Positions 51,456 to 62,196 of a stretch of DNA of 64,000 nucleotides are shown here, piece after piece. Source of the DNA: a virus (lineage: Duplodnaviria; Heunggongvirae; Uroviricota; Caudoviricetes); IMG/VR virus record IMGVR_UViG_2778261161_000002; one strand, given 5' to 3'. Numbering within the stretch: position 1 is the first letter of the stretch; each line of letters starts with the position of its first letter. Both the position numbers and the translations under genes were made by a program. The notes beneath the pieces are model-generated. The model was not told the origin of the DNA. It was given only the letters and a program-made list of their open reading frames with translations, and did no database searches.

Positions 51456-51740
51456 ATGAAGAAAATAGATTTCACTTACTCTGCTGCCACAATCCAGCGA
51501 CGTTTCAGTCTCATAAGGGAAGTGGAACTATCAAAAAACTGGTATCAAATTCTACTGGATGAAGAGTTTTCACTGATGGTTATAGCAGAAAAATTGGCTA
51601 TGCCGAATGACCGGCACAAGGTCATAGCCAGCCTGGATCTGGTGACAAACAGATACTGGGAATCCGAGGAACTACTTGAAGTTGGCTTGATACGCGAGAT
51701 GATAGAACAGGCTGTTCCCCTCCACTTACAGCAACCATAA
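51456..51740 (+). CDS. hypothetical protein
   Basis: 94 aa ORF. Confidence 0.4.
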   Translation: MKKIDFTYSAATIQRRFSLIREVELSKNWYQILLDEEFSLMVIAEKLAMPNDRHKVIASLDLVTNRYWESEELLEVGLIREMIEQAVPLHLQQP

Positions 51741-51876
51741 TTGAAAGGTCTTAACGATAGTCTGCCACGAATAGTTACTTTCACTGCCTAAAGTTATTTA
51801 ATTGCATTACAAAGTGTAAATTAGTAACATTAGAATCTCACACAGCACTATAACTATATGTTTTTTATGTAAAAGG

Positions 51877-52236
51877 ATGATAATCGTGGCTACTAAAATT
51901 AAACTTGAAAACCCTCAAACTGGCGAATCAATCACCGGTTTTTATGGTTTTTCCTGGACTACATTCTTGTTTGGTGCTTTTCCAGCTTTGTTCAGGAAAG
52001 ACTTTATAACTTTTATTGGGGTATTCGTAGTGATGCTGATACTGGCATTCCTCACAGCCGGAATTGGCCCGTGGATTGCCTCATTTATCTGGGCGTTCAT
52101 GTATAATAAATATTTCACCGTAAATAAGATAAAACAAGGCTTCATTTTTGCTGGTTCTCACACAGAAAATGAGTTGGCTGCTAGCAAGCTAGGATTGTCA
52201 TTAAATCAAAACAACTGCAAAACTATTACCGAGTAA
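51877..52236 (+). CDS. two-TM inner membrane protein (DUF2628-like)
   Basis: GFYGFSWTTFLFGAFPALFRKDF motif and two hydrophobic helices; AT-rich; start may be GTG 51886. Confidence 0.45.
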   Translation: MIIVATKIKLENPQTGESITGFYGFSWTTFLFGAFPALFRKDFITFIGVFVVMLILAFLTAGIGPWIASFIWAFMYNKYFTVNKIKQGFIFAGSHTENELAASKLGLSLNQNNCKTITE

Positions 52237-52276
52237 TAGCCAAAAAGCAGGCTTAATAGTAAGCCTGCTATGTCAA

Positions 52277-53098
52277 TCACGAATCTCTCTGACAATTCAG
52301 AAACATAAACGCCCGCTTGTCTGTTAAATCCGTAACATAATACTCTCTCATGCCTGTAGGTTTTATTCTACGAGCATATACAAACTTATGAACTGGTTGT
52401 TTTTCCCCATAACTTACATCAGTCCTAAATTCATCAACCACGCTACCATCTTTTTCGACTTCCTTCCTCACCAGCTTATTTTCTAATGCTGGCTTTAATT
52501 CGTCCATGCCACTAAAAGCATCCTGGCCTGTACTATTGCCTCGATTTCCGCGCGGCAAATCCCAGGAGAAATAAGTGCCATAGTCAGTAATCACACGATC
52601 CCAGACTCCGGTATCCCCCATATAGTTAGAGCGCTTTCCATTGTAGGTTACAGCCACTTTACAGGAGTACGTTTCTTCATTCCCTCCAGCCTTACTCGCT
52701 GTGGTTGCAGGGATATTTTGGATAGATGCGCTTACGTCATCTTGCGTTAATTCCTCAACTGGAGCAAATTCATATATGGGTGTGCCGAGGCTATTTAAAT
52801 ATAACTTATATCTAACCCTAAGCGCACTTCCATCTGAGAATTCATACGTTCCCAGGCATTGGAGCTTATTTTTTTCTCTTATCTCATTGATCTGATTATA
52901 AGCATCAATTACAGAGATTGCTTCCTGATCGTCCTTCAGCAGTTCATTATAATCATCAATTAACATCTGTCTGGTTTTAGGGGCATTGCAGTCAATTTTG
53001 CTAAAATCATAAGCAAAGGCAAATGTGGGAACAGAGAGAGCAACAACAGTAGCAAGTATTGTTGAGGAACATCTTTTTCCATTTTTTATAAAAAACAT
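52277..53098 (-). CDS. secreted protein of unknown function
   Basis: 273 aa from Met with GGAG RBS; signal peptide ending AFA; AT-rich. Confidence 0.45.
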   Translation of the reverse strand: MFFIKNGKRCSSTILATVVALSVPTFAFAYDFSKIDCNAPKTRQMLIDDYNELLKDDQEAISVIDAYNQINEIREKNKLQCLGTYEFSDGSALRVRYKLYLNSLGTPIYEFAPVEELTQDDVSASIQNIPATTASKAGGNEETYSCKVAVTYNGKRSNYMGDTGVWDRVITDYGTYFSWDLPRGNRGNSTGQDAFSGMDELKPALENKLVRKEVEKDGSVVDEFRTDVSYGEKQPVHKFVYARRIKPTGMREYYVTDLTDKRAFMFLNCQRDS

Positions 53099-53393
53099 TT
53101 CATTAACTCCATACTTTACCATCTTAGCCGCGAGCGCGGTCCCTAAAACCATTAACTTCACTGCACCGTTCCTTCATGCAATCAAAATGACTTTTATGTT
53201 ATAAAAATAATCAGCCAAATCAACATGATTTAGGCCAAATTTCTGTCAAAAAATAAAATCCACAAAAAGTGGTTGACACTATTTTGGAAATCACAAACTG
53301 CACATAATCCATCGCGCTAACGGCTCCCGTTGAAGGTTCTTTTGACGATTAACTTTCAGCCGAAGCGCGGTAGGGAGTCATAACGCCAAAGCA

Positions 53394-53417
53394 GGCCGCC
53401 ATGTGCGGCCTTTTTTT
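53394..53417 (+). terminator. plus-strand intrinsic terminator
   Basis: GGCCGC-CATGT-GCGGCC followed by TTTTTTT, 28 nt before the 53445 start. Confidence 0.65.
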
Positions 53418-53444
53418 GTATCCGTCATCCGTGGAGGAAGGACA

Positions 53445-54098
53445 ATGGAAAAGATCGCAATATTCAGCCTGACCACCAGCAAGCCTCAAATGCTCACTGC
53501 AATACTGAAAGACGGTGCTCTCATTATTAACGAAGTAAAACCCCTTCCCGCGTCAGCATTGGAGCAAAAGCAAAAAATTCCTCCAGCTATAGCAGCCCTG
53601 CGGAAAAGCAAATTTAAGGTACTGGTAGACGAAATTACGCCAACGATCTCCGCTGGCACCGGAGCAAGCCAGGTGACTCTCAAGACCCGTCATGCCGATG
53701 GCAGAGCAGCAATCATCGTCGGGATGGAGAGATACAGAGAGTTAAAACTCCAGAAGCTATTATCCCTGCCGCAAAATAACAAAGGTGCTTTCGAAATCCC
53801 CGACTCCATCGTTGACACCGAATACAACGGTAACGGAGAAGAAGTCTACCGGGTGAACTGGCAGGATATCAGGCCGGAACATATTCTGATGATCCTGTGT
53901 TGCTACGCGACCGTATACCACAACGTTGCCAGTGCAGATTACGTAGAGCAGATGACCGGTACAGTCGAGAAAGAGCAAAAAACAGGCATACTCGCTTCGT
54001 TCCTTTCCATTATTGGGCATGAAAAAGTTAAAGCAGGCACCTCCCAGCCAAAGTCACTGGCCGGGAAAGAAGTTGATGAAGATACCGTGATACTTTGA
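53445..54098 (+). CDS. hypothetical protein (tail-cluster position)
   Basis: 217 aa from Met with GGAGGAAGG RBS. Confidence 0.45.
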   Translation: MEKIAIFSLTTSKPQMLTAILKDGALIINEVKPLPASALEQKQKIPPAIAALRKSKFKVLVDEITPTISAGTGASQVTLKTRHADGRAAIIVGMERYRELKLQKLLSLPQNNKGAFEIPDSIVDTEYNGNGEEVYRVNWQDIRPEHILMILCCYATVYHNVASADYVEQMTGTVEKEQKTGILASFLSIIGHEKVKAGTSQPKSLAGKEVDEDTVIL

Positions 54099-54233
54099 TC
54101 ACATTAGTAGCTTTGTTAACTCCCTCAATACCAGGTAGAAGAGTAACAAAAATATTGACGCAAGTATTTGCGTGGTCAATGAGGCGTTCATAAACAGATC
54201 AATAAGCTTTAACAATTCTAGAATAACATCCAT
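54099..54233 (-). CDS. 44-aa hydrophobic peptide
   Basis: MDVILELLKLIDLFMNASLTTQILASIFLLLFYLVLRELTKLLM; GGAG 8 nt upstream; below ORF-track size cut-off. Confidence 0.3.
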   Translation of the reverse strand: MDVILELLKLIDLFMNASLTTQILASIFLLLFYLVLRELTKLLM

Positions 54234-54411
54234 GTCATTCACTCCGTTTAATTTTTAATCTAATGCCAGCAAATGAAGCTGGCCCCCGCATAAAGATTAA
54301 TGAAAGTCACTTGTCACCAGTGAGGGGATCCCTGAACTGGTGGCCTGTCTGTTTCTCGCATTTCACACCCTGCATACAGTTTCCCCCAGGTTATGACTGA
54401 GAGGCTTTGTT

Positions 54412-54741
54412 ATGGGCTATAGCAGACTCGACGATAGGTACATTGAAGACGATATTTTTCGTGCGCTGTTTCACCAGGAAATGATTAAGCGGGTATCGGA
54501 GTATCACTCTGATAATTTCCAGTACACGATAAAGATTGATGAAGTATATCGTTCAGACCTTGCAGCCTACAGGGCGTATGGCAATGCAGATTTGCGCTGG
54601 GTATTCCGGGTGCTGGTGGGCCATGAGTCAGAAATGGAAGAAATGCCCGCAGGGACCACGTTAACTCTTCCTGATGTGGCATGGCTGAGGAACAAGATCC
54701 GTGATTACGCAAGCGCGGAACCGGAGATAGAAAATGCCTGA
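54412..54741 (+). CDS. tail protein X-like (LysM-like) protein
   Basis: 109 aa; YRAYGNADLRWVFRVLVGHESEMEEMPAGTTLTLPDV resembles P2 gpX. Confidence 0.35.
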   Translation: MGYSRLDDRYIEDDIFRALFHQEMIKRVSEYHSDNFQYTIKIDEVYRSDLAAYRAYGNADLRWVFRVLVGHESEMEEMPAGTTLTLPDVAWLRNKIRDYASAEPEIENA

Positions 54742-55927
54742 TTTCCTGAAAAACCAGGACGGGCGCTATATCACTGACGGCCTGTCCTCTAAGGACTTCA
54801 CGCGTTTATTCGACCTTATCAGGAAAGAACAAACCCGTAAGCGCCGACAAGCTCACCGGACGCTGACGCCAGGTAGACTGAGGAACAAATCCGCCGAAGA
54901 TATTCTCAAGTTAGGGAAGAAAAAAGGCGGCACGTTCTTCACGCGAGACGACCTGAAAGGTTTCGAAAAGCTACGGAGTAAAACGCGCGAAAAATATGAC
55001 AGCAAGACGGCTGGCATCACATACGCCCAGCTGGTGGCATCCAGCCAGGCAATCGATATTAAGCGTGCAAATAACGCCGTGGATGACGGATCTGGTATCA
55101 AAAGAGCTACACCCGTATCTCTTCGCCACAATGTGATTAATATCCGCGTAGAAGCATCGGATATATCCGTCCACCAGCACCATATCGTCCGGATACGCTT
55201 TGAAGAATGGGAGCAGATGGTTGATGACATCGCAGAAGACGATAAATCAGCTCTCAAAATCACTAAATCACTGTGCGCCGGGCGAGTGTCTTTCGATTGT
55301 GACTGTGGTCGTCATCAATACTGGTATCGTTACATCGCCACTGCGGGTAACTTTGCCCTGGCACCGCCAAAAGAATACGCCTATCCAAAAGTTCGCAACC
55401 CGAAGCTGCAAGGCGTCGCCTGTAAACACGTGATCCACTCAATGACGCGGTTACAGTCCGCCAGTTGGCAAATGAGTATTGCTCGTGCGCTACAAAAGGC
55501 TGCAACGCAAATTGCATTTGGTGACGATCGCCGCCGTACAACCAAACACTTCTCAAAAGAAGACGAGAAGGAGTTTAATCGCAATCGTAGCAGTAAAACG
55601 AACGTTGAAGCCGCCAAACGCGAATGGAGGCTCTATCAGAAGCGCCAGGCAGCTTTAAGTACAAAACTGGCAAAGGACAACGGCAAGATCGACAAACTAC
55701 GTGACCAATTGACCAAGGCCAGAAAGTTGTCAGATGCACAGAAAAAACGGGCGGCAGCAAAAGAAGCGGCCTTGCAACGTGAGAAACAGAAAAACAAGGA
55801 GCTTCAGCAACGCCTTGCCGATCAGTTCGCACTGAAGAAGCAGGCGTTCATTGATGCGCTTGTCATGGCTGGAACACCACCAGCACAAGCTGAAAAAATG
55901 TTCATGGAGTATGTAAAAAAAGCATAA
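54734..55927 (+). CDS. SWIM zinc-finger protein with C-terminal coiled coil
   Basis: 397 aa; CxC...CxH arrangement (FDCDCGRHQ ... GVACKHVIH). Confidence 0.45.
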   Translation: MPDFLKNQDGRYITDGLSSKDFTRLFDLIRKEQTRKRRQAHRTLTPGRLRNKSAEDILKLGKKKGGTFFTRDDLKGFEKLRSKTREKYDSKTAGITYAQLVASSQAIDIKRANNAVDDGSGIKRATPVSLRHNVINIRVEASDISVHQHHIVRIRFEEWEQMVDDIAEDDKSALKITKSLCAGRVSFDCDCGRHQYWYRYIATAGNFALAPPKEYAYPKVRNPKLQGVACKHVIHSMTRLQSASWQMSIARALQKAATQIAFGDDRRRTTKHFSKEDEKEFNRNRSSKTNVEAAKREWRLYQKRQAALSTKLAKDNGKIDKLRDQLTKARKLSDAQKKRAAAKEAALQREKQKNKELQQRLADQFALKKQAFIDALVMAGTPPAQAEKMFMEYVKKA

Positions 55928-55960
55928 ACCACACATAGCCTAGCTGCCTAGGCTAGGCTT

Positions 55961-56689
55961 TCATCTTTTTGAAAAATCAATTTCCGTTTTATCAAATAAA
56001 TTTGAAATATCAGCAACCAATTTATTAAAATCATGATCGCCATTATAAAGCGAAGTCTTCTTTATTGCCATTACAAAATCATATAACTTTTCTGGGGAGT
56101 CAATACCAACCCCTCTACTTTTAAAAAGCTCAATGATAACTCCAACATCATCATATAATAACTTTATTGCCGCCATAATCTCTTTTTGCTGCCTAAGCAA
56201 TCTCTCAAGTTCATTTTTATTTTCATCCATAATTCTTTTGTTGAATTGTGTATCATTAATACTTTTTATTATTTCAGTCTCTTTTATTTGCAACGCCTTT
56301 CTTTTATTTTGATCCATGTCGGCATCCAAATACCTTATCTCTGTATATATTTTACTTGTTAGCTTTGATACGCAAAGAGTGACAATCGGAGCTGCAATTG
56401 ATGCAATAATTCCAAAAATAAATGGCAAGCAAAAATGATAAAGCCAAGGAGACAAAACGCCTTCATAAACTAGAGGAATCTTACCTCCAACAAATGTTAC
56501 AGATAAAGTATATAGGATATCATCCTTTGACTTCATCAATATTAGTATATCTTTCCAATTAATAATTAGAAAAGAAATTAATATATATGCAAACACTTTA
56601 TTAAAAAGCTTGTCTTTTATGGCATCTCCAAAAGATACTTTTATTAGATCATTTTCAGTCAATTTTTCTGTTGATGAATCTGTATTCAT
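55961..56689 (-). CDS. AT-rich two-TM membrane protein with long helical C-terminal domain
   Basis: 242 aa; TM helices about residues 33-53 and 80-105; very low GC; no family recognised. Confidence 0.6.
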   Translation of the reverse strand: MNTDSSTEKLTENDLIKVSFGDAIKDKLFNKVFAYILISFLIINWKDILILMKSKDDILYTLSVTFVGGKIPLVYEGVLSPWLYHFCLPFIFGIIASIAAPIVTLCVSKLTSKIYTEIRYLDADMDQNKRKALQIKETEIIKSINDTQFNKRIMDENKNELERLLRQQKEIMAAIKLLYDDVGVIIELFKSRGVGIDSPEKLYDFVMAIKKTSLYNGDHDFNKLVADISNLFDKTEIDFSKR

Positions 56690-56751
56690 ATAAACTACCG
56701 TGATTTCTAATATCTATTTTATGAAAATAGCGGTCATCCAGACCGCCAAAC

Positions 56752-57111
56752 TCAAATACCAACCAAGCTTTCAAGAGGAATGCCAAACTGGGAATGTAAA
56801 CGGCGAATCATAGGTAACGTCAAATTTCGTGTCCCATTTAGCACTTCGTAAACACGATTTGACTTACCAATCGCCGGTTCCAGATCCTTCACGGTCAGCC
56901 CTTGCTGTTCCATACGGAATTTAATGGCCTCAATAGGTGATGGTGGCTCAATTGGGTAATGTTTTTTCTCGTACTCCTCAATGAGAAGACTCATAACCTC
57001 AAAGAAATCACCTTCCGGAGTATTCATTTCCGGTTCGTTATCGAACATCGGTTCGACCGCACGCAGTGCGGCCTCATAATCTTGTTCTGTACGGATAGGT
57101 TTAATGTTCAT
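56752..57111 (-). CDS. HigA-family (COG5499-type) HTH antitoxin-like regulator
   Basis: 119 aa; C-terminal GLTVKDLEPAIGKSNRVYEVLNGTRNLTLPMIRRLHSQFGIPLESL parallels E. coli HigA. Confidence 0.6.
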   Translation of the reverse strand: MNIKPIRTEQDYEAALRAVEPMFDNEPEMNTPEGDFFEVMSLLIEEYEKKHYPIEPPSPIEAIKFRMEQQGLTVKDLEPAIGKSNRVYEVLNGTRNLTLPMIRRLHSQFGIPLESLVGI

Positions 57112-57123
57112 TAATTACAAAGG

Positions 57124-57150
57124 AAAGCCCACTTGCTAAGTGGGCTTTTT
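57124..57150. terminator. intrinsic terminator hairpin (bidirectional)
   Basis: AAGCCCACTT-GCTA-AAGTGGGCTT with flanking T/A runs. Confidence 0.6.
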
Positions 57151-57167
57151 GTATGTGTTTTACTATA

Positions 57168-57506
57168 TCAGGCTGCTTTTTTATTCAGGTTCCGCTGAGA
57201 AATAAATTTTTCAGCAGTATTGATACGACTTAACTCTTCCTGAACGCGCATATCATTTTCGACTTCCCACAGATCTACTGCGGTCTGAAGATTAATCCAA
57301 AAATCTACAGAAGTATCGAATGCTTTTGCCAGGCGATATGCCATATCCATCGTTAGCTTACGATTATTATTAACAAGAGCACTTACGGTGTTACGATGAA
57401 CATGAAGTATTTCTGCTAACTCGTTGATCTTCAGCTCTAACGGCTCCAGGTATTCGTACAGCAGGATATCACCTACGGTCGTCGGTTTTCTGGTTGCCTG
57501 TTTCAT
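57168..57506 (-). CDS. higA: HigA antitoxin (XRE-family HTH)
   Basis: 112 aa; canonical HigA HTH pattern. Confidence 0.8.
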   Translation of the reverse strand: MKQATRKPTTVGDILLYEYLEPLELKINELAEILHVHRNTVSALVNNNRKLTMDMAYRLAKAFDTSVDFWINLQTAVDLWEVENDMRVQEELSRINTAEKFISQRNLNKKAA

Positions 57507-57576
57507 TTTTTGCCCTTACTAGCGTGCGTATTAAGTGGACTCTGGTCAGAACCCGGTCCGTAACCGGGTATCTGTT

Positions 57577-57879
57577 TTAGTATTTGTGAGGGTCGAGATA
57601 CAAGTCCTCGGCCTTTCCGTTAACCCACTTAAAAATTAACCTATATTGCTTATTCACCCTTACTGATGAATAGCCATTTAGCTTCCCTGACAGTTCCTCA
57701 TACCGATTACCTGGTGGTGATCTTAAATCCTTACAGGTAGTTGCGGCATTGATAATGTCCAACTTCCGTGACAATGTCATATGAATATCAGGAGGTATCT
57801 TTCTATGTGGTGTTGAAAATTCAAAAAAATCATCAAGCCACGCATCCCTGAAATCCTTTATGTTAATTTTTTTGGTCAT
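57577..57879 (-). CDS. higB: HigB toxin (RelE/ParE superfamily killer protein)
   Basis: 100 aa; F.D.WL..FFE ... GNRYEELSGKL ... QYRLIF killer-protein signature. Confidence 0.8.
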   Translation of the reverse strand: MTKKINIKDFRDAWLDDFFEFSTPHRKIPPDIHMTLSRKLDIINAATTCKDLRSPPGNRYEELSGKLNGYSSVRVNKQYRLIFKWVNGKAEDLYLDPHKY

Positions 57880-58041
57880 TAGTCATTTGATCCTCCGTGA
57901 TGATTACCGAATGCCATAACTATAGCGCACCGTTGCACTGTGCGCAAGTGCATTTTATGAATTCCCCCTCCTTCATCCAAAATCACAATCTCCCGAAAAT
58001 CTTCCTTTCGATACCTGACAGATCGACCTTTGAGGATGCTT

Positions 58042-58833
58042 ATGGGCCGTTTTGACGAATGGTTTGCTGACGATGTAAACCTGGCAAGTAAGGAGTCAGA
58101 ACATGACTGCACGCAGAGAGAAACGCCAGCGCCGATTGAAGCGAATGCAGGAGGCGCGCCGGAACATGGCAATACCAGTTCGGATTCATTCAGCATTCTG
58201 GAAGAGCAACCCGCCGCCAAAGCTGATAGCCATGATAATTTTGCTGATAGCAACGGTGGCCTTACTCCGGACGCTGGCGAATCAAATATAGCCACACTTC
58301 CACCTTCCCTGGCTGGCAGAGAACCGACTCCACAGCTAAAAGCACGCTATAACGGGCATAAAGCCTTTAACGACCAAATCCGCGCAGACTGGATGCTGAT
58401 TATTGAATCCAGCCCAGACGCGTTTCAGGCTCTCTTATATCGACCAGATGTTGGCACATATGGGGTAGTCAGCGACGAAACAGGAGAAGAGTCATTCACT
58501 GAACTGGATAACAACCAGCGCGAACTGACTTACCAGGAACCTGAAATCGTTTATGTGCTGGATAACCCGGACGGGCGTGACTCTCTCCATGCGATTGACG
58601 CAGACGGTGAGCAGGATGGCTTAACCGATGATGTTCTGATTCTGCGTATTGCAGCAAATAACGTCCCCGTCGGATCAATTCTTGAATGGAATGAAGAGAT
58701 GGTAAACGGCGTAGCCCGCCGCTGGTGGTACGTGCACCGTATTTTTAGCTACGGCACACAGCATGTTGGTTCGCTTTACTACTGCATACCGGCCAGGAAT
58801 TTTGATACGACTCAAAACGGAGTGATCGAATGA
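58042..58833 (+). CDS. putative tail/baseplate protein
   Basis: 263 aa from Met with GAGGA RBS; in cluster ending with spike gene. Confidence 0.4.
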   Translation: MGRFDEWFADDVNLASKESEHDCTQRETPAPIEANAGGAPEHGNTSSDSFSILEEQPAAKADSHDNFADSNGGLTPDAGESNIATLPPSLAGREPTPQLKARYNGHKAFNDQIRADWMLIIESSPDAFQALLYRPDVGTYGVVSDETGEESFTELDNNQRELTYQEPEIVYVLDNPDGRDSLHAIDADGEQDGLTDDVLILRIAANNVPVGSILEWNEEMVNGVARRWWYVHRIFSYGTQHVGSLYYCIPARNFDTTQNGVIE

Positions 58834-59597
58834 CTTCAAATAAAACCCTCCTGGCGCGAACAGGTGAATGGCAAACCTCACGCACAGGAAAATTCCAGAC
58901 CACGGGCTTTGAAAGCGTGGATAACGCGTTTGCTACGCTAATCAGCAATATCTTTTCTGATATCTTACTGGTGGCCCCCGCGCCGGAAGAAAAACGCTTT
59001 GCGTCATTCCTGAATCGTCCACCAGCAGAGCGTGTCTATGTGGCCCGTTTCGACAATGCGATCGAGTTTCTTAAAGCAGTTCGTCGCGCAAATGCCGGGC
59101 AAGGGAGAAAACCTGAAAACCAGAACATTAACCGGGATGCTCTCCCCCTGGTCAATATCTCACGCACTATGGATATCAATTATATCAACGATGATCAGCA
59201 GATTGACCGCAAAAAAGTAGCCAGTTTTTGCGAACCGGATACCGGAATGCCTTTAGCAGAACTGGAATACACCCAGGCCATTCTGACGTATGACGTTACG
59301 TTAATGGCAACTGATAAAGCGACCATGAGTCTGATGTGTAATTCGCTGGGCGCACGGCTTCGCCTGATGACAGGTACACAATTTGAAGCAACCACTCACC
59401 TTGTTCGTGTCCCGGTCCCGCTGATTTGCTCGATACAGGATGCCAAAGAAGTCGGATTTACGGATGTTTCGGCACCAATTGGAGAAGAGCGTATTTATGC
59501 CACACAAGCGCCGATAAGTGTGATTGCAGACGTGATCACAGCATGGGAGTTGGACGCAAAACGTATTATTACCGAAACCTCGATATCTATGGGGTGA
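58830..59597 (+). CDS. putative tail/baseplate protein
   Basis: 255 aa; overlapping start/stop. Confidence 0.4.
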   Translation: MTSNKTLLARTGEWQTSRTGKFQTTGFESVDNAFATLISNIFSDILLVAPAPEEKRFASFLNRPPAERVYVARFDNAIEFLKAVRRANAGQGRKPENQNINRDALPLVNISRTMDINYINDDQQIDRKKVASFCEPDTGMPLAELEYTQAILTYDVTLMATDKATMSLMCNSLGARLRLMTGTQFEATTHLVRVPVPLICSIQDAKEVGFTDVSAPIGEERIYATQAPISVIADVITAWELDAKRIITETSISMG

Positions 59598-59600
59598 TAA

Positions 59601-60581
59601 GTGGCCCAGGAGTTACAACAATATTTTCTACAGTCAGTGCTCATTAACGATAACAAAGTGCCACGAGACTGGATTTTTACCGCAGTATATGTAGAAAAAA
59701 CCAGCCTCAAAGCCCCTTTGCTAAAACTGGAAATTCATGACGCTACCGGCACCGTAATTGATGACTGGAAAGCCAAATACGGTGCATCGCTGGTGGCTGA
59801 AATGGGCGATCCAAACGGTAATGTAGGCACTTTTAAAACAGATTTCTTTGTTACGTCTGCAATGCTGGCTGGTGATGTTGTTACCGTTATTGCTGTCAGT
59901 GAAGACGTGCGCAGGTTTAAGATCCCCTCCCCGCGCACAAATTTACATACCAACAAAACACCAGACGCTATATTCAAGGCATATTCCGGCAAGCTTAAAA
60001 TTACCAGCAGCGTGCTAAAACGCGCAGTTACATATCATCTGAATGCTGGTGACAAACCGTCAAAAATGCTTTCGGAGATAGCGCGAGACAAAGGTGCATT
60101 GTGTTGGGTATGTCGGGGGGAATTTAACTTTTACACCCTGGCTGATCTGATGAAGCAAACGCCATCATTTACCTACGAGGGGAATAACCCTAAAGCAGAA
60201 TACACTTTGTCAAAAATGCGCCTACTCCAACAGGAACATGCGTCAACAGCAAAGAATCAATATCGTTTTGTTGGGTATTCCATGACCGATGGCTACGTCG
60301 AATATGGCGATAGCTCACTCCCAGTGCGTTATATATCCGACTCTGATATGGAAACTCTTCGCAATATGCAGCTGTCTCTCGTCCCCAAAATGGATATAGA
60401 AGTCGCAGGCAATCCTGATATAAAACCGGGGATGGTAATAGAGATTATCGTATACCGCTATGACCAGGAAAACCGCATTGATGAATCAATGCCCCGTAAG
60501 CTGATAGTAAAAAATGTTGCGCACTTTGAGGACCGCGTAGGCTACACAACACGAATGATATTGGGAGTGCCGAACAAATGA
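59601..60581 (+). CDS. putative baseplate hub protein
   Basis: 326 aa directly upstream of, and overlapping, the spike gene. Confidence 0.35.
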   Translation: MAQELQQYFLQSVLINDNKVPRDWIFTAVYVEKTSLKAPLLKLEIHDATGTVIDDWKAKYGASLVAEMGDPNGNVGTFKTDFFVTSAMLAGDVVTVIAVSEDVRRFKIPSPRTNLHTNKTPDAIFKAYSGKLKITSSVLKRAVTYHLNAGDKPSKMLSEIARDKGALCWVCRGEFNFYTLADLMKQTPSFTYEGNNPKAEYTLSKMRLLQQEHASTAKNQYRFVGYSMTDGYVEYGDSSLPVRYISDSDMETLRNMQLSLVPKMDIEVAGNPDIKPGMVIEIIVYRYDQENRIDESMPRKLIVKNVAHFEDRVGYTTRMILGVPNK

Positions 60582-61231
60582 AGCGTAGAGCGCAAATTGT
60601 TGGAACTGTGCACCCGGCAGGGCTTATGCGTGCTCAAGTCCGTGTTTTACCTGACTGGAATGGCGTTCCTGATGACGATCTACCCTGGGCGGAATACCAG
60701 TTACCCATCGGGAACGCTTTTGTACCTACAGTCAAAGGTGACCTGGTCTGGGTAGAGTTTCCTTATTTAGATGTTAACGGTCGAATAGACACCAGACGCC
60801 CAATGATAGTTGGTGCCGCTCAGGATGCACCGGGAGGAATTCCAAACGTTGCACCAGAAGCATCTGGCAAAGGCAACGGCTGGACGCCGCCGGAAGTAGA
60901 TGGAGCACCTCCCCGCCCCCAAATCTCAGCAACGAAAGACTTCGTTATTCACCGCAACAATATTCTTGAAGTACGAACTGCTGGTGGCGGCTATGAAATT
61001 GCCAATACGGCAGCTGGCTCAAGGATTGGCATGAATGAGTCCGGGCAGATATATATCATTGGTCCGGCTGATGTAATCGTGAATGCAGGAGGGAGTGTTA
61101 ACGTCAAATCAGCCAACAACATCAATGTTAATGGGGAAAATATAGCTGTCACCGCTAACGGGGACATAGCTTTCAAGGCAGGAGGAACCTTTCAGGCCAC
61201 TGCTGGCAACTTCGATTTCAAGAAAGGATAG
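60578..61231 (+). CDS. baseplate spike protein (gpV-like)
   Basis: 217 aa; N-terminal OB-fold pattern (GDLVWVEF) and Gly-rich beta-helical C-terminus. Confidence 0.55.
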   Translation: MKRRAQIVGTVHPAGLMRAQVRVLPDWNGVPDDDLPWAEYQLPIGNAFVPTVKGDLVWVEFPYLDVNGRIDTRRPMIVGAAQDAPGGIPNVAPEASGKGNGWTPPEVDGAPPRPQISATKDFVIHRNNILEVRTAGGGYEIANTAAGSRIGMNESGQIYIIGPADVIVNAGGSVNVKSANNINVNGENIAVTANGDIAFKAGGTFQATAGNFDFKKG

Positions 61232-61247
61232 AAAATGCACCCATTTA

Positions 61248-61282
61248 TGTTAGATAATTAACATGCATTTTCTAACATAAAT
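61248..61282. promoter_or_regulatory. TGTTAGATAATTAACA palindrome plus TTTTCTAACATAAAT (operator-like site N)
   Basis: motif family member immediately upstream of the rdgC homologue. Confidence 0.45.
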
Positions 61283-61290
61283 GGTGAGAC

Positions 61291-62196
61291 ATGAGATCAG
61301 TCGCTTTCAAAAATATCTTCATCTATCGTCTTTCACGCGAAGTTAACTGGGATACCGCAGAAGTAAATGCTGCCCTTAGCAAGTTTGTGTTTACCCCATG
61401 CGGTTCTCAGGATATTGCTAAAGCTGGTTGGACCCCCGTCCTTGGCGACAACCTCACCCATGAATACAAGGGTTTTCTTCTGATACAGCATAAACGAGAG
61501 GAAAAAATCCTACCTTCTCAAGTGCTCAAAGAAGAGCTACAGAAAAAAATCCTGAAACTTGAAGAAGAACAAGACAGAAAGCTGAAGAAGACCGAAAAAG
61601 ATTCGCTGAAGGATGAAGTGCTTCACTCTCTTCTTCCTCGTGCTTTCACGAGAAAATCAGTCGCTAAAATCCTGATAGACCGAAGCAATCATCTGGTTTT
61701 TGTCGAGGCGAGCAGTGCTAAAAAAGCAGAGGATCAGCTGGCTTTGTTACGGAAATCTCTTGGCAGCTTGCCCGTTGTCCCCTTCTCTCCGAAAGACCCA
61801 TTAGAACTGACCATCACTGGCTGGATTAAAAATGGCTTCCCGAACGGTTTCCGTGCCGGTGAGGAAGCGACCTTAAAAGCATTGCTTGATGATGGCGGCG
61901 CGGTCCGCTGCAAAAAAGTGGACCTGCTATCCGACGAGATCATGAGTCATATAGAAGCTGGTAAGGTTGCAACCACAGTTGCGGTTAACTGGCAAGACCG
62001 TGCATTTTTCAGACTGAATGACGATATGAGTATCAAGGCTTTGTCGTTCAGCGACGAATTGTACGACCAGAACGACGATATTGATCGAGGGGATGTTGCT
62101 CAACGATTTGACGCTGACTTTATCCTGTTTACTGCTGAATTATCAGCGATGTTCACTTCGCTGGTGGAGGCCGTTGGTGGTGAAGCAGAACGTTAA
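61291..62196 (+). CDS. hrdC: RdgC homologue (recombination-associated protein)
   Basis: 301 aa colinear with E. coli RdgC ([50 protein letters not shown]). Confidence 0.85.

What the first reader, a model, noticed from the sequence alone, without database searches (positions are those of the whole stretch)
55940..58041. Accessory island splits the tail/baseplate late gene cluster
Plus-strand tail genes (53445..55927 and 58042..61231) are interrupted by about 2 kb of minus-strand genes with lower GC (membrane protein, HigA-like HTH, higA, higB), bracketed by hairpin terminators at 55936-55957 and 57124-57150. This looks like a moron insertion at a late-operon junction.
Basis: seen in the sequence. 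Interest (0 to 1): 0.45.

Follow-up and report, generated by a model that had tools for sequence, protein, structure and literature searches.

The report
Toxin-antitoxin cargo island splitting phage tail genes
A 2.1-kb block of four backward-facing accessory genes (a HigB/HigA toxin-antitoxin pair, a leftover second antitoxin and an unknown membrane protein) interrupts the tail-gene operon of a phage D6-like plasmid prophage. It is real, but it is already annotated in phage D6, so it is an ordinary "moron" at a cargo hotspot.

Summary
Window 53400-61300 is 98.9% identical to Escherichia phage D6, and the island is D6 orf70-73. Four minus-strand genes lie between the homologues of P1 tail genes 25 and 7: higB, higA, a 119-aa HTH protein and a 242-aa two-TM protein. 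Island GC is 37.6%, against 47.5% for the window. In P1, P7, Cronobacter phage JK004 and three IMG/VR relatives, genes 25 and 7 abut or overlap, so the moron reading is supported.

Comparison of 37 distinct islands adds three points.
- The 25|7 junction is a long-lived cargo hotspot in the whole D6 clade. Its borders are fixed (about 55922 and 57980) and all cargo is antisense.
- The island is a mosaic of three units, each ending in its own hairpin.
- The 119-aa HTH is the antitoxin of a different, E. coli K-12-type HigB (PF09907; PD-lambda-2_A-like). Here the Rts1/GraT-type higBA pair has displaced that toxin. The orphan is truncated or frameshifted in most relatives.

The membrane protein belongs to a rare uncharacterised family that also sits antisense in P2-like and lambdoid prophages. 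Its function is unknown. How genes 7-24-6-5 are transcribed is unresolved. Low novelty.

The parts
54734..55927 (+). Left flank: homologue of P1 tail gene 25 (D6 orf74). Backbone homology to divergent relatives ends at about 55922, five bases before the stop codon.
   Evidence: (57% aa identity to P1 gp25)
55937..55959 (.). Hairpin T1. It lies directly after the gene 25 stop and after the 242-aa gene. It is terminator-like on both strands, with the better T-tract on the + strand. Sibling islands have different sequences here that still read by eye as a stem-loop.
   Evidence: (z -3.75 on +)
55961..56689 (-). X73 (D6 orf73). A 242-aa protein with two TM segments, a predicted helix spanning residues 81-191 and a small helical C-terminal domain. 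GC 29%. Rare uncharacterised family.
   Evidence: (phrog_8191)
56728..56748 (-). Hairpin T2, the terminator-like stem after the 119-aa HTH gene. In two-gene sibling islands (L011) the equivalent hairpin directly abuts gene 25.
   Evidence: z -4.49
56752..57111 (-). HTH72 (D6 orf72). A 119-aa antitoxin of the E. coli K-12 HigA (YgjM) type with a C-terminal HTH. Here it is orphaned, because its PF09907 HigB partner is absent.
   Evidence: (PD-Lambda-2_B positions 1-119 of 402, 4e-43)
57122..57150 (.). Hairpin T3 (13-bp stem) after higA, 12 nt upstream of the HTH72 ATG. The T-tract is good on the + strand and poor on the - strand. It marks the recombination joint between the higBA unit and HTH72; homology to HigB2-type islands ends at about 57118.
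57168..57506 (-). higA (D6 orf71). A 112-aa HigA-family antitoxin, closest solved relative E. coli YbaQ.
   Evidence: TIGR02607, 8e-30; 2EBY, 1e-53
57551..57569 (-). Stable hairpin in the 70-nt higB-higA spacer. Role unknown.
   Evidence: z -4.04
57577..57879 (-). higB (D6 orf70). A 100-aa RelE-superfamily HigB toxin of the Rts1/GraT type.
   Evidence: PF05015, 4e-35; GraT 6F8S_B, 2.8e-14
57919..57952 (-). Candidate higBA promoter read by eye: TTGCGC, 17 nt, TATAGT (8 of 12, below the scan threshold). It is overlapped by inverted repeats (GCGCAC..GTGCGC; TGCAC..GTGCA) that could be HigA operators.
   Evidence: read from the sequence; not listed; inference
57980..58041 (+). 62-nt leader of gene 7, recovered as a match in nearly every D6-clade island compared, whatever the cargo. 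It marks the right border of the variable region.
   Evidence: (H145)
58042..58833 (+). Right flank: homologue of P1 tail gene 7 (D6 orf69). Genes 24, 6 and 5 follow, up to 61231.

Best explanation
The 55928-57979 block is accessory cargo sitting at a conserved hotspot: the junction between tail genes 25 and 7 of the D6 lineage of P1-like plasmid prophages. In P1 these two genes are adjacent in one late operon.

The cargo is a mosaic of three independently exchangeable units. All are transcribed against the late operon, and each ends in its own hairpin.

1. higB-higA, a complete Rts1/GraT-type type II toxin-antitoxin pair. By family knowledge, HigB is a ribosome-dependent mRNA endonuclease, and HigA neutralises it and represses the promoter. 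Its most likely job is post-segregational killing that stabilises the low-copy plasmid prophage. Abortive infection is a possible extra role.

2. HTH72, the antitoxin of a different, E. coli K-12-type HigB (PF09907). That toxin is still its neighbour in sibling islands, but here higBA has replaced it. HTH72 is left as an orphan without its own promoter.

3. X73, an AT-rich two-TM membrane protein with a long predicted helix. It behaves as a free-standing prophage moron and is probably a lysogenic-conversion function, such as superinfection exclusion.

Shown here: gene identities, the contiguity of genes 25 and 7 in P1-type phages, the hotspot borders, the mosaic structure, and purifying selection on the genes.

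Inferred: promoter use, the addiction or defence function, and the role of X73.
For: Identity with D6. The region is 98.9% identical to D6 and corresponds to orf70-73.

Family assignments.
- HigB: PF05015, 4e-35.
- HigA: TIGR02607, 8e-30, and E. coli YbaQ 2EBY, 1e-53.
- HigB also matches GraT (6F8S_B), 2.8e-14.

Genes 25 and 7 are contiguous in P1, P7 and L046, as are the corresponding ORFs in JK004.

Survey of 37 distinct islands.
- HTH72 is present in 33, X73 in 30, HigB+HigA in 20 and HigB2 in 11.
- All named cargo genes are on the minus strand.
- Borders are fixed at about 55922 and 57980.

HTH72 and its missing partner.
- In sibling islands HigB2 (PF09907 3e-34; PD-Lambda-2_A 1e-41) lies 3 nt upstream of HTH72.
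- HTH72 is intact in 11 of 11 HigB2 islands but only 9 of 20 HigBA islands. At least three separate lesions are seen: a roughly 200-nt deletion and two frameshifts.

Module independence. X73 occurs alone (L042, L043), and HigB2+HTH72 occur alone (L011, L045).

Selection. dN/dS is 0.21 for HigB, 0 for HigA, 0.05-0.10 for HTH72 and 0.18-0.32 for X73. X73 has dS above 1.3 while the flanks are 96-100% identical.

X73 relatives elsewhere. They sit antisense in the tail/baseplate gene cluster of P2-like prophages and in a lambdoid prophage.

Distribution. This higBA allele is found in 76 of 5426 complete E. coli genomes, always on plasmids, mostly of about 90 kb.

Composition and hairpins.

Literature. 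The D6 higA-higB pair has been read as post-segregational killing (PMC6799933).
Against: - No expression or phenotype data exist. The higBA promoter is only an 8/12 consensus match read by eye and was not reported by the scan.
- D6-like plasmids already carry phd-doc, so a second addiction module is not obviously needed.
- HTH72 shows strong purifying selection where it is intact (dN/dS 0.05-0.10). That fits a retained function better than a decaying orphan.
- X73 has no family, defence-model or fold match. Its role is a guess from genomic context.
- No promoter was found for genes 7-24-6-5 downstream of two competent-looking + strand terminators. The transcriptional logic of the split operon is therefore not explained.
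Confidence: 0.78

Rival explanations
1. The island is primarily an anti-phage defence locus rather than an addiction module. It would be a PD-lambda-2-like or HigBAC-like abortive-infection system, with X73 as a membrane effector that protects the lysogen from other phages.
For: - HTH72 matches the N-terminal HigA-like domain of PD-Lambda-2_B (4e-43).
- The sibling toxin matches PD-Lambda-2_A (1e-41).
- PD-lambda-2 is an experimentally shown three-gene Abi system (PMC9519451).
- Prophage hotspots inside tail clusters often carry defence genes.
- X73 relatives occupy analogous slots in P2-like and lambdoid prophages.
Against: - This window lacks the PD-lambda-2_A-type toxin. The window's own HigB has no PADLOC hit.
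- HTH72 covers only positions 1-119 of the 402-position B profile, so the peptidase domain is absent.
- None of the X73 proteins tested matched the PD-Lambda-2_C model or any other PADLOC model meaningfully.
- The units occur independently of one another.
- A DefenseFinder survey found a complete defence system in only one D6-like element.
Confidence: 0.2
2. The cargo is ancestral to the whole P1/D6 group, and the P1 lineage lost it by precise deletion. On this view nothing was inserted.
For: - Every D6-clade member examined has cargo, including ones with gp25 only 63% identical.
- More distant outgroups (Acinetobacter ABMM1, Xanthomonas Rb1) have no recognisable gene 7 homologue after gene 25, so they cannot polarise the event.
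Against: - P1, P7, JK004 and L046-48 all show a 3-nt gap or a 4-nt overlap typical of an undisturbed operon.
- Cargo composition is foreign: GC 0.376, against 0.475 for the window.
- Cargo content differs between D6 relatives. Its gene families occur in unrelated elements.
- In the outgroups, the gene after the gene 25 homologue is co-oriented with it and either overlaps it or starts 4 nt downstream.
Confidence: 0.07
3. The block is largely non-functional debris from past recombination, kept only because deleting it precisely without harming the tail genes is unlikely.
For: - HTH72 is truncated or frameshifted in 11 of 20 HigBA-type islands.
- X73 is shortened or split in L020 and L028.
- L039 is a 306-nt scar holding a higB2 remnant.
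- HTH72 has no promoter of its own here.
Against: - HigB and HigA are full length in all 20 islands that carry them. HigA is 100% conserved at the protein level despite synonymous change (dS up to 0.07).
- dN/dS is 0.05-0.32 for all four genes.
- X73 is at least 229 aa in 28 of 30 islands despite saturated synonymous divergence.
Confidence: 0.05

Closest known systems
Escherichia phage D6 orf70-orf73 (MF356679 / NC_050154) and the D6-like plasmid prophages of E. coli and Salmonella (e.g. pYU39_89)
   Same: The locus is the same. The tail region is 98.9% identical and the island is 99.8-99.9% identical to Salmonella plasmids CP032492 and CP111090. Gene order and flanking genes match. The higA-higB pair has already been called a second post-segregational killing system (PMC6799933).
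   Different: Nothing material differs. The most common D6-like variant has a net 200-nt deletion that truncates HTH72 to 66 aa and carries a 58%-identical X73 allele. The window has the rarer version with an intact HTH72; 7 of 114 plasmids cover at least 80% of the island.
Morons of temperate phages (the Juhala/Hendrix HK97/HK022 concept, cited from my own knowledge) and accessory-gene hotspots of P2-like phages (Z/fun and old/tin hotspots; the orf30 site between S and V, from my own knowledge)
   Same: An extra transcription unit lies between two genes that are adjacent in relatives. It has foreign base composition, predicted terminators of its own and a candidate promoter, and it is oriented so that it could be expressed from the prophage. 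The same slot holds different cargo in different relatives. A distant X73 homologue sits antisense between the Phage_tail_S and Phage_base_V genes of P2-like prophages, separated from tail gene S by one unannotated ORF.
   Different: The host element is a plasmid prophage, so an addiction function makes sense here in a way it does not for integrated prophages. The slot splits what is a single late operon in P1, and no replacement promoter for the downstream half was found.
HigBA of plasmid Rts1 (Proteus vulgaris) and GraTA of Pseudomonas putida (type II TA with the toxin gene first)
   Same: The gene order is toxin then antitoxin. HigB matches PF05015 (4e-35) and HigA matches TIGR02607 (8e-30). 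GraT is the closest solved toxin and shares the motif DLRSPPGNR.E.LSG...S.RVN.Q.RL.F.W. Inverted repeats overlap the candidate promoter.
   Different: HigA is closest to E. coli YbaQ (1e-53). A 70-nt higB-higA spacer holds a stable hairpin. Toxicity and neutralisation are untested.
E. coli K-12 HigB/HigA (YgjN/YgjM) and the PD-lambda-2 defence system (Vassallo et al. 2022, PMC9519451)
   Same: HTH72 aligns with K-12 HigA (5IFG/5YCL, 8e-8) and with the N-terminal domain of PD-Lambda-2_B (4e-43). In sibling islands its upstream partner is a PF09907 HigB that matches PD-Lambda-2_A (1e-41).
   Different: The toxin is absent in this window. HTH72 is a stand-alone 119-aa protein with no peptidase domain. 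The third gene is X73, which did not match the PD-Lambda-2_C model.

Membership tests
Moron (extra transcription unit in a temperate phage genome) | Present between two genes that are adjacent in related phages | tested here: met
   In P1 and P7, the gene 25 stop and the gene 7 ATG are 3 nt apart; the corresponding ORFs of JK004 show the same gap, and L046 shows a 4-nt overlap. The gap is 2114 nt here.
Moron (extra transcription unit in a temperate phage genome) | Base composition different from the surrounding genome | tested here: met
   Island GC is 0.376 against 0.475 for the window. GC3 is 0.23 for X73 and 0.40-0.43 for the other three genes; the six tail/baseplate genes span 0.43-0.53, so only X73 stands clearly apart on GC3.
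Moron (extra transcription unit in a temperate phage genome) | Own promoter and factor-independent terminator | tested here: inconclusive
   Three terminator-like hairpins have z-scores of -3.75 to -4.84. Only a weak 8/12 sigma-70 candidate lies upstream of higB, read by eye. No separate promoter was found for HTH72 or X73.
Moron (extra transcription unit in a temperate phage genome) | Expressed from the repressed prophage | not testable with these tools
   Needs RNA-seq or reporter fusions in a D6 lysogen.
HigBA type II toxin-antitoxin system (Rts1/GraTA type) | RelE-fold HigB toxin domain | tested here: met
   PF05015 at 4e-35, 120.5 bits against a cut-off of 27. GraT 6F8S_B at 2.8e-14.
HigBA type II toxin-antitoxin system (Rts1/GraTA type) | HigA-family HTH antitoxin encoded immediately downstream of the toxin (reversed TA gene order) | tested here: met
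   TIGR02607 (an equivalog model) at 102.5 bits against a cut-off of 47.7. higB lies upstream of higA on the same strand with a 70-nt spacer.
HigBA type II toxin-antitoxin system (Rts1/GraTA type) | Toxin arrests growth, antitoxin neutralises it, and the complex autoregulates the operon | not testable with these tools
   Only indirect support. Both genes are full length in all 20 islands that carry them. dN/dS is 0.21 for HigB and 0 for HigA. Inverted repeats lie at the candidate promoter.
PD-lambda-2 anti-phage system | Component A: HigB-like toxin of the PD-Lambda-2_A family | tested here: not met
   The window's HigB has no PADLOC hit. The A-type toxin is present only in sibling islands.
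PD-lambda-2 anti-phage system | Component B: HigA-like Xre domain fused to a C-terminal peptidase domain | tested here: not met
   HTH72 covers only positions 1-119 of the 402-position B profile. Its ORF ends at 56752 and is followed by a hairpin and the start of X73.
PD-lambda-2 anti-phage system | Component C: P4 antitoxin-like third protein | tested here: not met
   The window's X73 and three sibling X73 alleles gave no PADLOC hits. Hits among 38 family members are generic coiled-coil matches only.
E. coli K-12-type HigA (YgjM-like) antitoxin | N-terminal toxin-binding domain plus C-terminal HTH, encoded directly after a PF09907 HigB | tested here: inconclusive
   The domain layout and similarity are met: HTH_3 at residues 63-115 and 5IFG/5YCL at 8e-8. 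The PF09907 partner is present 3 nt upstream in L009 and L011. In this window the partner is missing.

The most novel reading that the evidence does not exclude
X73 may found an undescribed family of prophage-encoded inner-membrane proteins (two TM segments, one long predicted helix and a small C-terminal domain). These would repeatedly occupy antisense moron slots of unrelated temperate phages: D6-like plasmid prophages, P2-like prophages (in the tail/baseplate cluster) and a lambdoid prophage (next to replication genes). They would act as a new superinfection-exclusion or abortive-infection effector, possibly pore-forming. In addition, the orphan HTH72 may be kept as an anti-addiction antitoxin. 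It would let this plasmid displace incompatible sibling plasmids armed with the PF09907 HigB without the host being killed.
Probability: 0.2. Interest if true: 0.5.

Novelty: already known. Interest (0 to 1): 0.25.

Why it matters
Very little is new for the locus itself. It is D6 orf70-73, it is annotated, and its higBA pair has been discussed in print as a plasmid-addiction system.

The comparison does add a tidy case study.
- A single inter-cistronic junction of a conserved late operon has become a long-lived cargo slot in one lineage of phage-plasmids.
- One toxin-antitoxin pair has displaced the toxin of another and stranded its antitoxin.
- A rare membrane-protein family recurs in antisense cargo slots in three kinds of temperate phage.

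These points could guide searches for new exclusion or defence genes. They also raise a concrete question about how the downstream tail genes are transcribed once the operon is split.

Tried and rejected
- **Flanking repeats.** I looked for target-site duplications or inverted repeats that would indicate transposition or site-specific insertion. None were found beyond chance-level AT-rich matches.
- **Late promoter for gene 7.** I derived the P1 late-promoter pattern from four annotated P1 promoters. The pattern is a -22 box (AAGTGATTT, AAGTTACTT, AAATGACTA or TAGTCATTT), 4 nt, then a -10 element. The only perfect box in the window is at 54294-54312 on the minus strand. Nothing convincing lies upstream of gene 7. 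A 9-mer identical to the P1 LP26 box overlaps the higB start codon but lacks a -10 element. Its expected chance frequency is about 0.5 per window (my calculation), so I treated it as chance.
- **Shared motifs in the gene 7 leader.** None were found elsewhere in the window.
- **Rfam scan of the island.** Only two sub-threshold chance hits on hairpin T3.
- **X73 function.**
  - Pfam, NCBIfam and PADLOC gave nothing for the window's X73. PHROGs gave only unknown-function families.
  - Scans of three sibling alleles and of 38 family members added only sub-threshold or generic coiled-coil hits.
  - The first AF2 model was too poor to use (pLDDT 59.8). The second was good (pLDDT 87.4).
  - Foldseek against PDB and BFVD gave no hit with E at or below 0.001. 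The top, non-significant PDB hits were two-TM cation-channel pores.
  - The afdb50 library was unavailable.
- **Outgroup polarisation.** Acinetobacter ABMM1 and Xanthomonas Rb1 were tried, but their genes downstream of the gene 25 homologue show no detectable similarity to gp7.
- **Papers.** The D6 genome paper (PMC5800970) and the P1 genome paper (PMC523184) are not held. I could not check whether the D6 authors explicitly described the split operon.
Full report
**What is there**

Between 55928 and 58041 the window carries four minus-strand ORFs:
- 55961-56689 (242 aa, called X73 here)
- 56752-57111 (119 aa, called HTH72 here)
- 57168-57506 (112 aa)
- 57577-57879 (100 aa)

Plus-strand ORFs flank them, ending at 55927 and starting at 58042.

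The 7.9-kb stretch 53400-61300 is 98.9% identical over its full length to Escherichia phage D6 (MF356679 / NC_050154). In the D6 record the four genes are orf73 (hypothetical), orf72 and orf71 (both called HigA-family antitoxins) and orf70 (RelE-family toxin). The flanking genes are annotated as homologues of P1 mat, 26 and 25 on one side, and 7, 24, 6 and 5 on the other.

**Family assignments**

- The 100-aa protein is a HigB-like toxin: PF05015, 4e-35. Its closest solved relative is the GraT toxin, 6F8S_B, 2.8e-14.
- The 112-aa protein is a HigA antitoxin: TIGR02607 equivalog, 8e-30. It is closest to E. coli YbaQ, 2EBY, 1e-53.
- HTH72 has a C-terminal HTH_3 domain. It resembles E. coli K-12 HigA/YgjM, 5IFG/5YCL, 8e-8. 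It also matches positions 1-119 of the 402-position PADLOC profile PD-Lambda-2_B at 4e-43.
- X73 has no Pfam, NCBIfam or PADLOC hit. It matches only PHROG families of unknown function.

**Composition and hairpins**

GC falls to 0.29-0.31 over X73. It is 0.385-0.44 over the remaining island windows, against 0.46-0.51 in the windows over tail genes 25 and 7-24. The island as a whole is 0.376, against 0.475 for the window. GC3 is 0.23 for X73 and 0.40-0.43 for the other three genes. The six tail/baseplate genes span 0.43-0.53, so only X73 stands clearly apart on GC3.

Terminator-like sites are enriched: 10 against 2.1 +/- 1.3 in shuffles. There are three strong hairpins, not two (folding z-scores):
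- T1 at 55937-55959, z -3.75
- T2 at 56728-56748, z -4.49
- T3 at 57122-57150, z -3.95 and -4.84

T3 does not bracket the island. It separates higA from HTH72, 12 nt before the HTH72 start codon. T1 and T3 have better T-tracts on the plus strand than on the minus strand.

A further stable hairpin lies in the 70-nt higB-higA spacer, 57551-57569, z -4.04.

No flanking direct or inverted repeats suggest transposition. Rfam finds nothing.

**Are the tail genes contiguous elsewhere?**

Yes. In P1 and P7 the gene 25 stop and the gene 7 ATG are 3 nt apart, within the operon 26-25-7-24-6-5 that P1 transcribes from late promoter LP26. The corresponding unnamed ORFs of Cronobacter phage JK004 show the same 3-nt gap. 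In an IMG/VR relative with P1-level similarity the two genes overlap by 4 nt.

Every D6-clade element examined has something between genes 25 and 7. I compared 37 distinct islands from PLSDB plasmids and IMG/VR contigs. Their lengths run from 306 to 2890 nt, and all named cargo genes are on the minus strand.

The right border is constant. The last 62 nt before gene 7 (57980-58041) are recovered as a match in nearly every island compared. The left border lies in the last codons of gene 25, at about 55922.

**Cargo types at the hotspot**

Gene clustering gives these counts among the 37 islands:
- HTH72: 33
- X73: 30
- HigA and HigB: 20 each
- A second toxin, HigB2: 11
- A 179-aa "stationary phase growth adaptation protein": 3
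- An AlpA-like small HTH gene: 1 (L033)
- A 306-nt scar: 1 (L039)

HigB2 is a PF09907 HigB_toxin (3e-34) and matches PD-Lambda-2_A (1e-41). It lies 3 nt upstream of HTH72 in L009 and L011. HTH72 is therefore the cognate antitoxin of a K-12-type HigB.

The architectures seen are:
- HigB2+HTH72 alone. This includes a distant relative with gp25 only 63% identical.
- HigB2+HTH72+X73. This includes a relative at 82% gp25 identity.
- X73 alone (gp25 73% identical).
- HigB+HigA+HTH72+X73, which is the window type.

The hotspot is thus old within the D6 clade, and the three units move independently.

**The mosaic in this window**

Homology between the window and HigB2-type islands covers HTH72 and T2 only (56730-57118, 94.9% identity). 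It stops at the HTH72 start, where T3 and the higBA unit begin. The simplest reading is that the Rts1/GraT-type higBA pair, with its own terminator T3, replaced the PF09907 toxin gene. HTH72 was left as an orphan with no promoter of its own.

Consistent with this, HTH72 is intact in 11 of 11 HigB2 islands but only 9 of 20 HigBA islands. At least three independent lesions are seen: a net 200-nt deletion in the most common 1914-nt variant, and frameshifts in L032 and L034. The window carries the rarer version with an intact HTH72. Only 7 of 114 plasmids cover at least 80% of the island.

Against simple decay, intact HTH72 copies show dN/dS of 0.05-0.10.

**Evidence of function**

HigB and HigA are full length in all 20 islands that carry them. 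dN/dS is 0.21 for HigB. HigA has no amino-acid change despite synonymous differences.

This higBA allele occurs in 76 of 5426 complete E. coli genomes, always on plasmids, mostly of about 90 kb, and never on a chromosome.

Upstream of higB I read a candidate promoter on the minus strand at about 57947-57919 (TTGCGC, 17 nt, TATAGT). Inverted repeats overlap it. It scores only 8 of 12 and was not reported by the scan, so it is an inference.

The D6 higA-higB pair has been described as a second post-segregational killing system alongside phd-doc (PMC6799933). By family knowledge, HigB is a ribosome-dependent mRNA endonuclease, and HigA neutralises it and represses the operon. None of this has been tested for this locus.

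**X73**

The protein has two hydrophobic segments, at about residues 32-52 and 82-112.

An exhaustive profile search of 1.84 billion representative proteins found only 56 clusters at E at or below 1e-3.

With a 38-sequence alignment, AlphaFold gives a confident, all-helical model (pLDDT 87.4). TM2 runs into one long predicted helix (residues 81-191), followed by a small helical C-terminal domain.

X73 alleles in otherwise 96-100% identical backbones are only 39-58% identical. dS exceeds 1.3 and dN/dS is 0.18-0.32. This indicates allele replacement by recombination under purifying selection.

Distant family members occur in other temperate-phage contexts:
- One lies antisense in the tail/baseplate cluster of P2-like prophages, between the Phage_tail_S and Phage_base_V genes and separated from tail gene S by one unannotated ORF.
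- One lies in a lambdoid prophage, next to replication genes.
- One lies in another D6-like island.

X73 therefore behaves as a free-standing prophage moron. A role in superinfection exclusion or abortive infection is plausible but rests only on context.

**Relation to PD-lambda-2**

PD-lambda-2 has three components: a HigB-like protein, a HigA-like Xre domain fused to a peptidase, and a P4-antitoxin-like protein. The second component is the toxic one (PMC9519451).

The window has none of the three defining components in full. Its HigB has no PADLOC hit, HTH72 lacks the peptidase domain, and X73 did not match the component C model. It is a relative of parts of that system, not a member.

**Unresolved**

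In P1 one late promoter serves genes 26 through 5. Here T1 and T3 both look like competent plus-strand terminators between gene 25 and gene 7.

Using the P1 late-promoter pattern taken from four annotated P1 promoters, I found one perfect -22 box in the window, at 54294-54312 on the minus strand, between mat and gene 26. Nothing convincing lies upstream of gene 7, and there is no good sigma-70 promoter there either. How genes 7-24-6-5 are expressed is not explained by the sequence.

**Verdict**

The locus is already annotated in phage D6, and its TA pair is already in the literature, so novelty is low. What this work adds:
- the hotspot picture
- the three-unit mosaic
- the orphaned K-12-type antitoxin
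- the recurrence of the X73 family in antisense cargo slots of other temperate phages

I could not read the D6 genome paper. I therefore cannot say how much of this its authors already noted.

Noticed in passing
window 54099-54411 (between mat and gene 26); compare L007 1236-1807 and L008 1236-1807: This is a second cargo slot. Here the mat-to-gene-26 spacer holds only two tiny minus-strand ORFs (D6 orf76 and orf77). In some D6-like plasmids (NZ_CP115379, NZ_CP035876) a plus-strand RelE/ParE toxin plus HigA antitoxin pair is inserted at the same place.
   Followed up: partly
window 54294-54312, minus strand: This is the only perfect match in the window to the P1 late-promoter -22 box (AAGTGACTT, 4 nt, TAATCT). 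It lies in the spacer upstream of gene 26, mirroring the divergent LP26/LPpmgL arrangement of P1. The plus-strand reading of the same box lacks a recognisable -10 element.
   Followed up: partly
window 57880-57888: The 9-mer TAGTCATTT (AAATGACTA on the minus strand) is identical to the -22 box of P1 LP26/LPpmgL. It overlaps the higB start codon and has no -10 element. My calculation gives about 0.5 such matches per window by chance, so it is probably coincidence.
   Followed up: yes
window 57551-57569: A stable hairpin (z -4.04) lies in the unusually long 70-nt spacer between higB and higA. It might affect the relative expression or processing of toxin and antitoxin mRNA.
   Followed up: no
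window 51600-53400: This is another low-GC patch (0.37-0.41). It holds a 119-aa hydrophobic protein (D6 orf80, plus strand) and a minus-strand simB-like gene (D6 orf79). It looks like a further accessory or superimmunity region next to the tail cluster.
   Followed up: no
L052-L055 4001-4651 (P2-like prophages); L056 4001-4666 (lambdoid prophage): Distant X73-family genes sit in the opposite orientation to their neighbours. One lies between the Phage_tail_S and Phage_base_V genes of P2-like prophages, next to a 247-aa unannotated gene. Another lies between the replication and late-regulatory genes of a lambdoid prophage.
   Followed up: partly
L012 2983-3522, L041, L034 (island coordinates 226-765): Some D6-like elements (E. 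marmotae plasmid NZ_CP099353 and two IMG/VR contigs) carry a 159-179-aa 'stationary phase growth adaptation protein' at the 25|7 slot, with or without the TA genes. It has no Pfam or PADLOC hit.
   Followed up: partly
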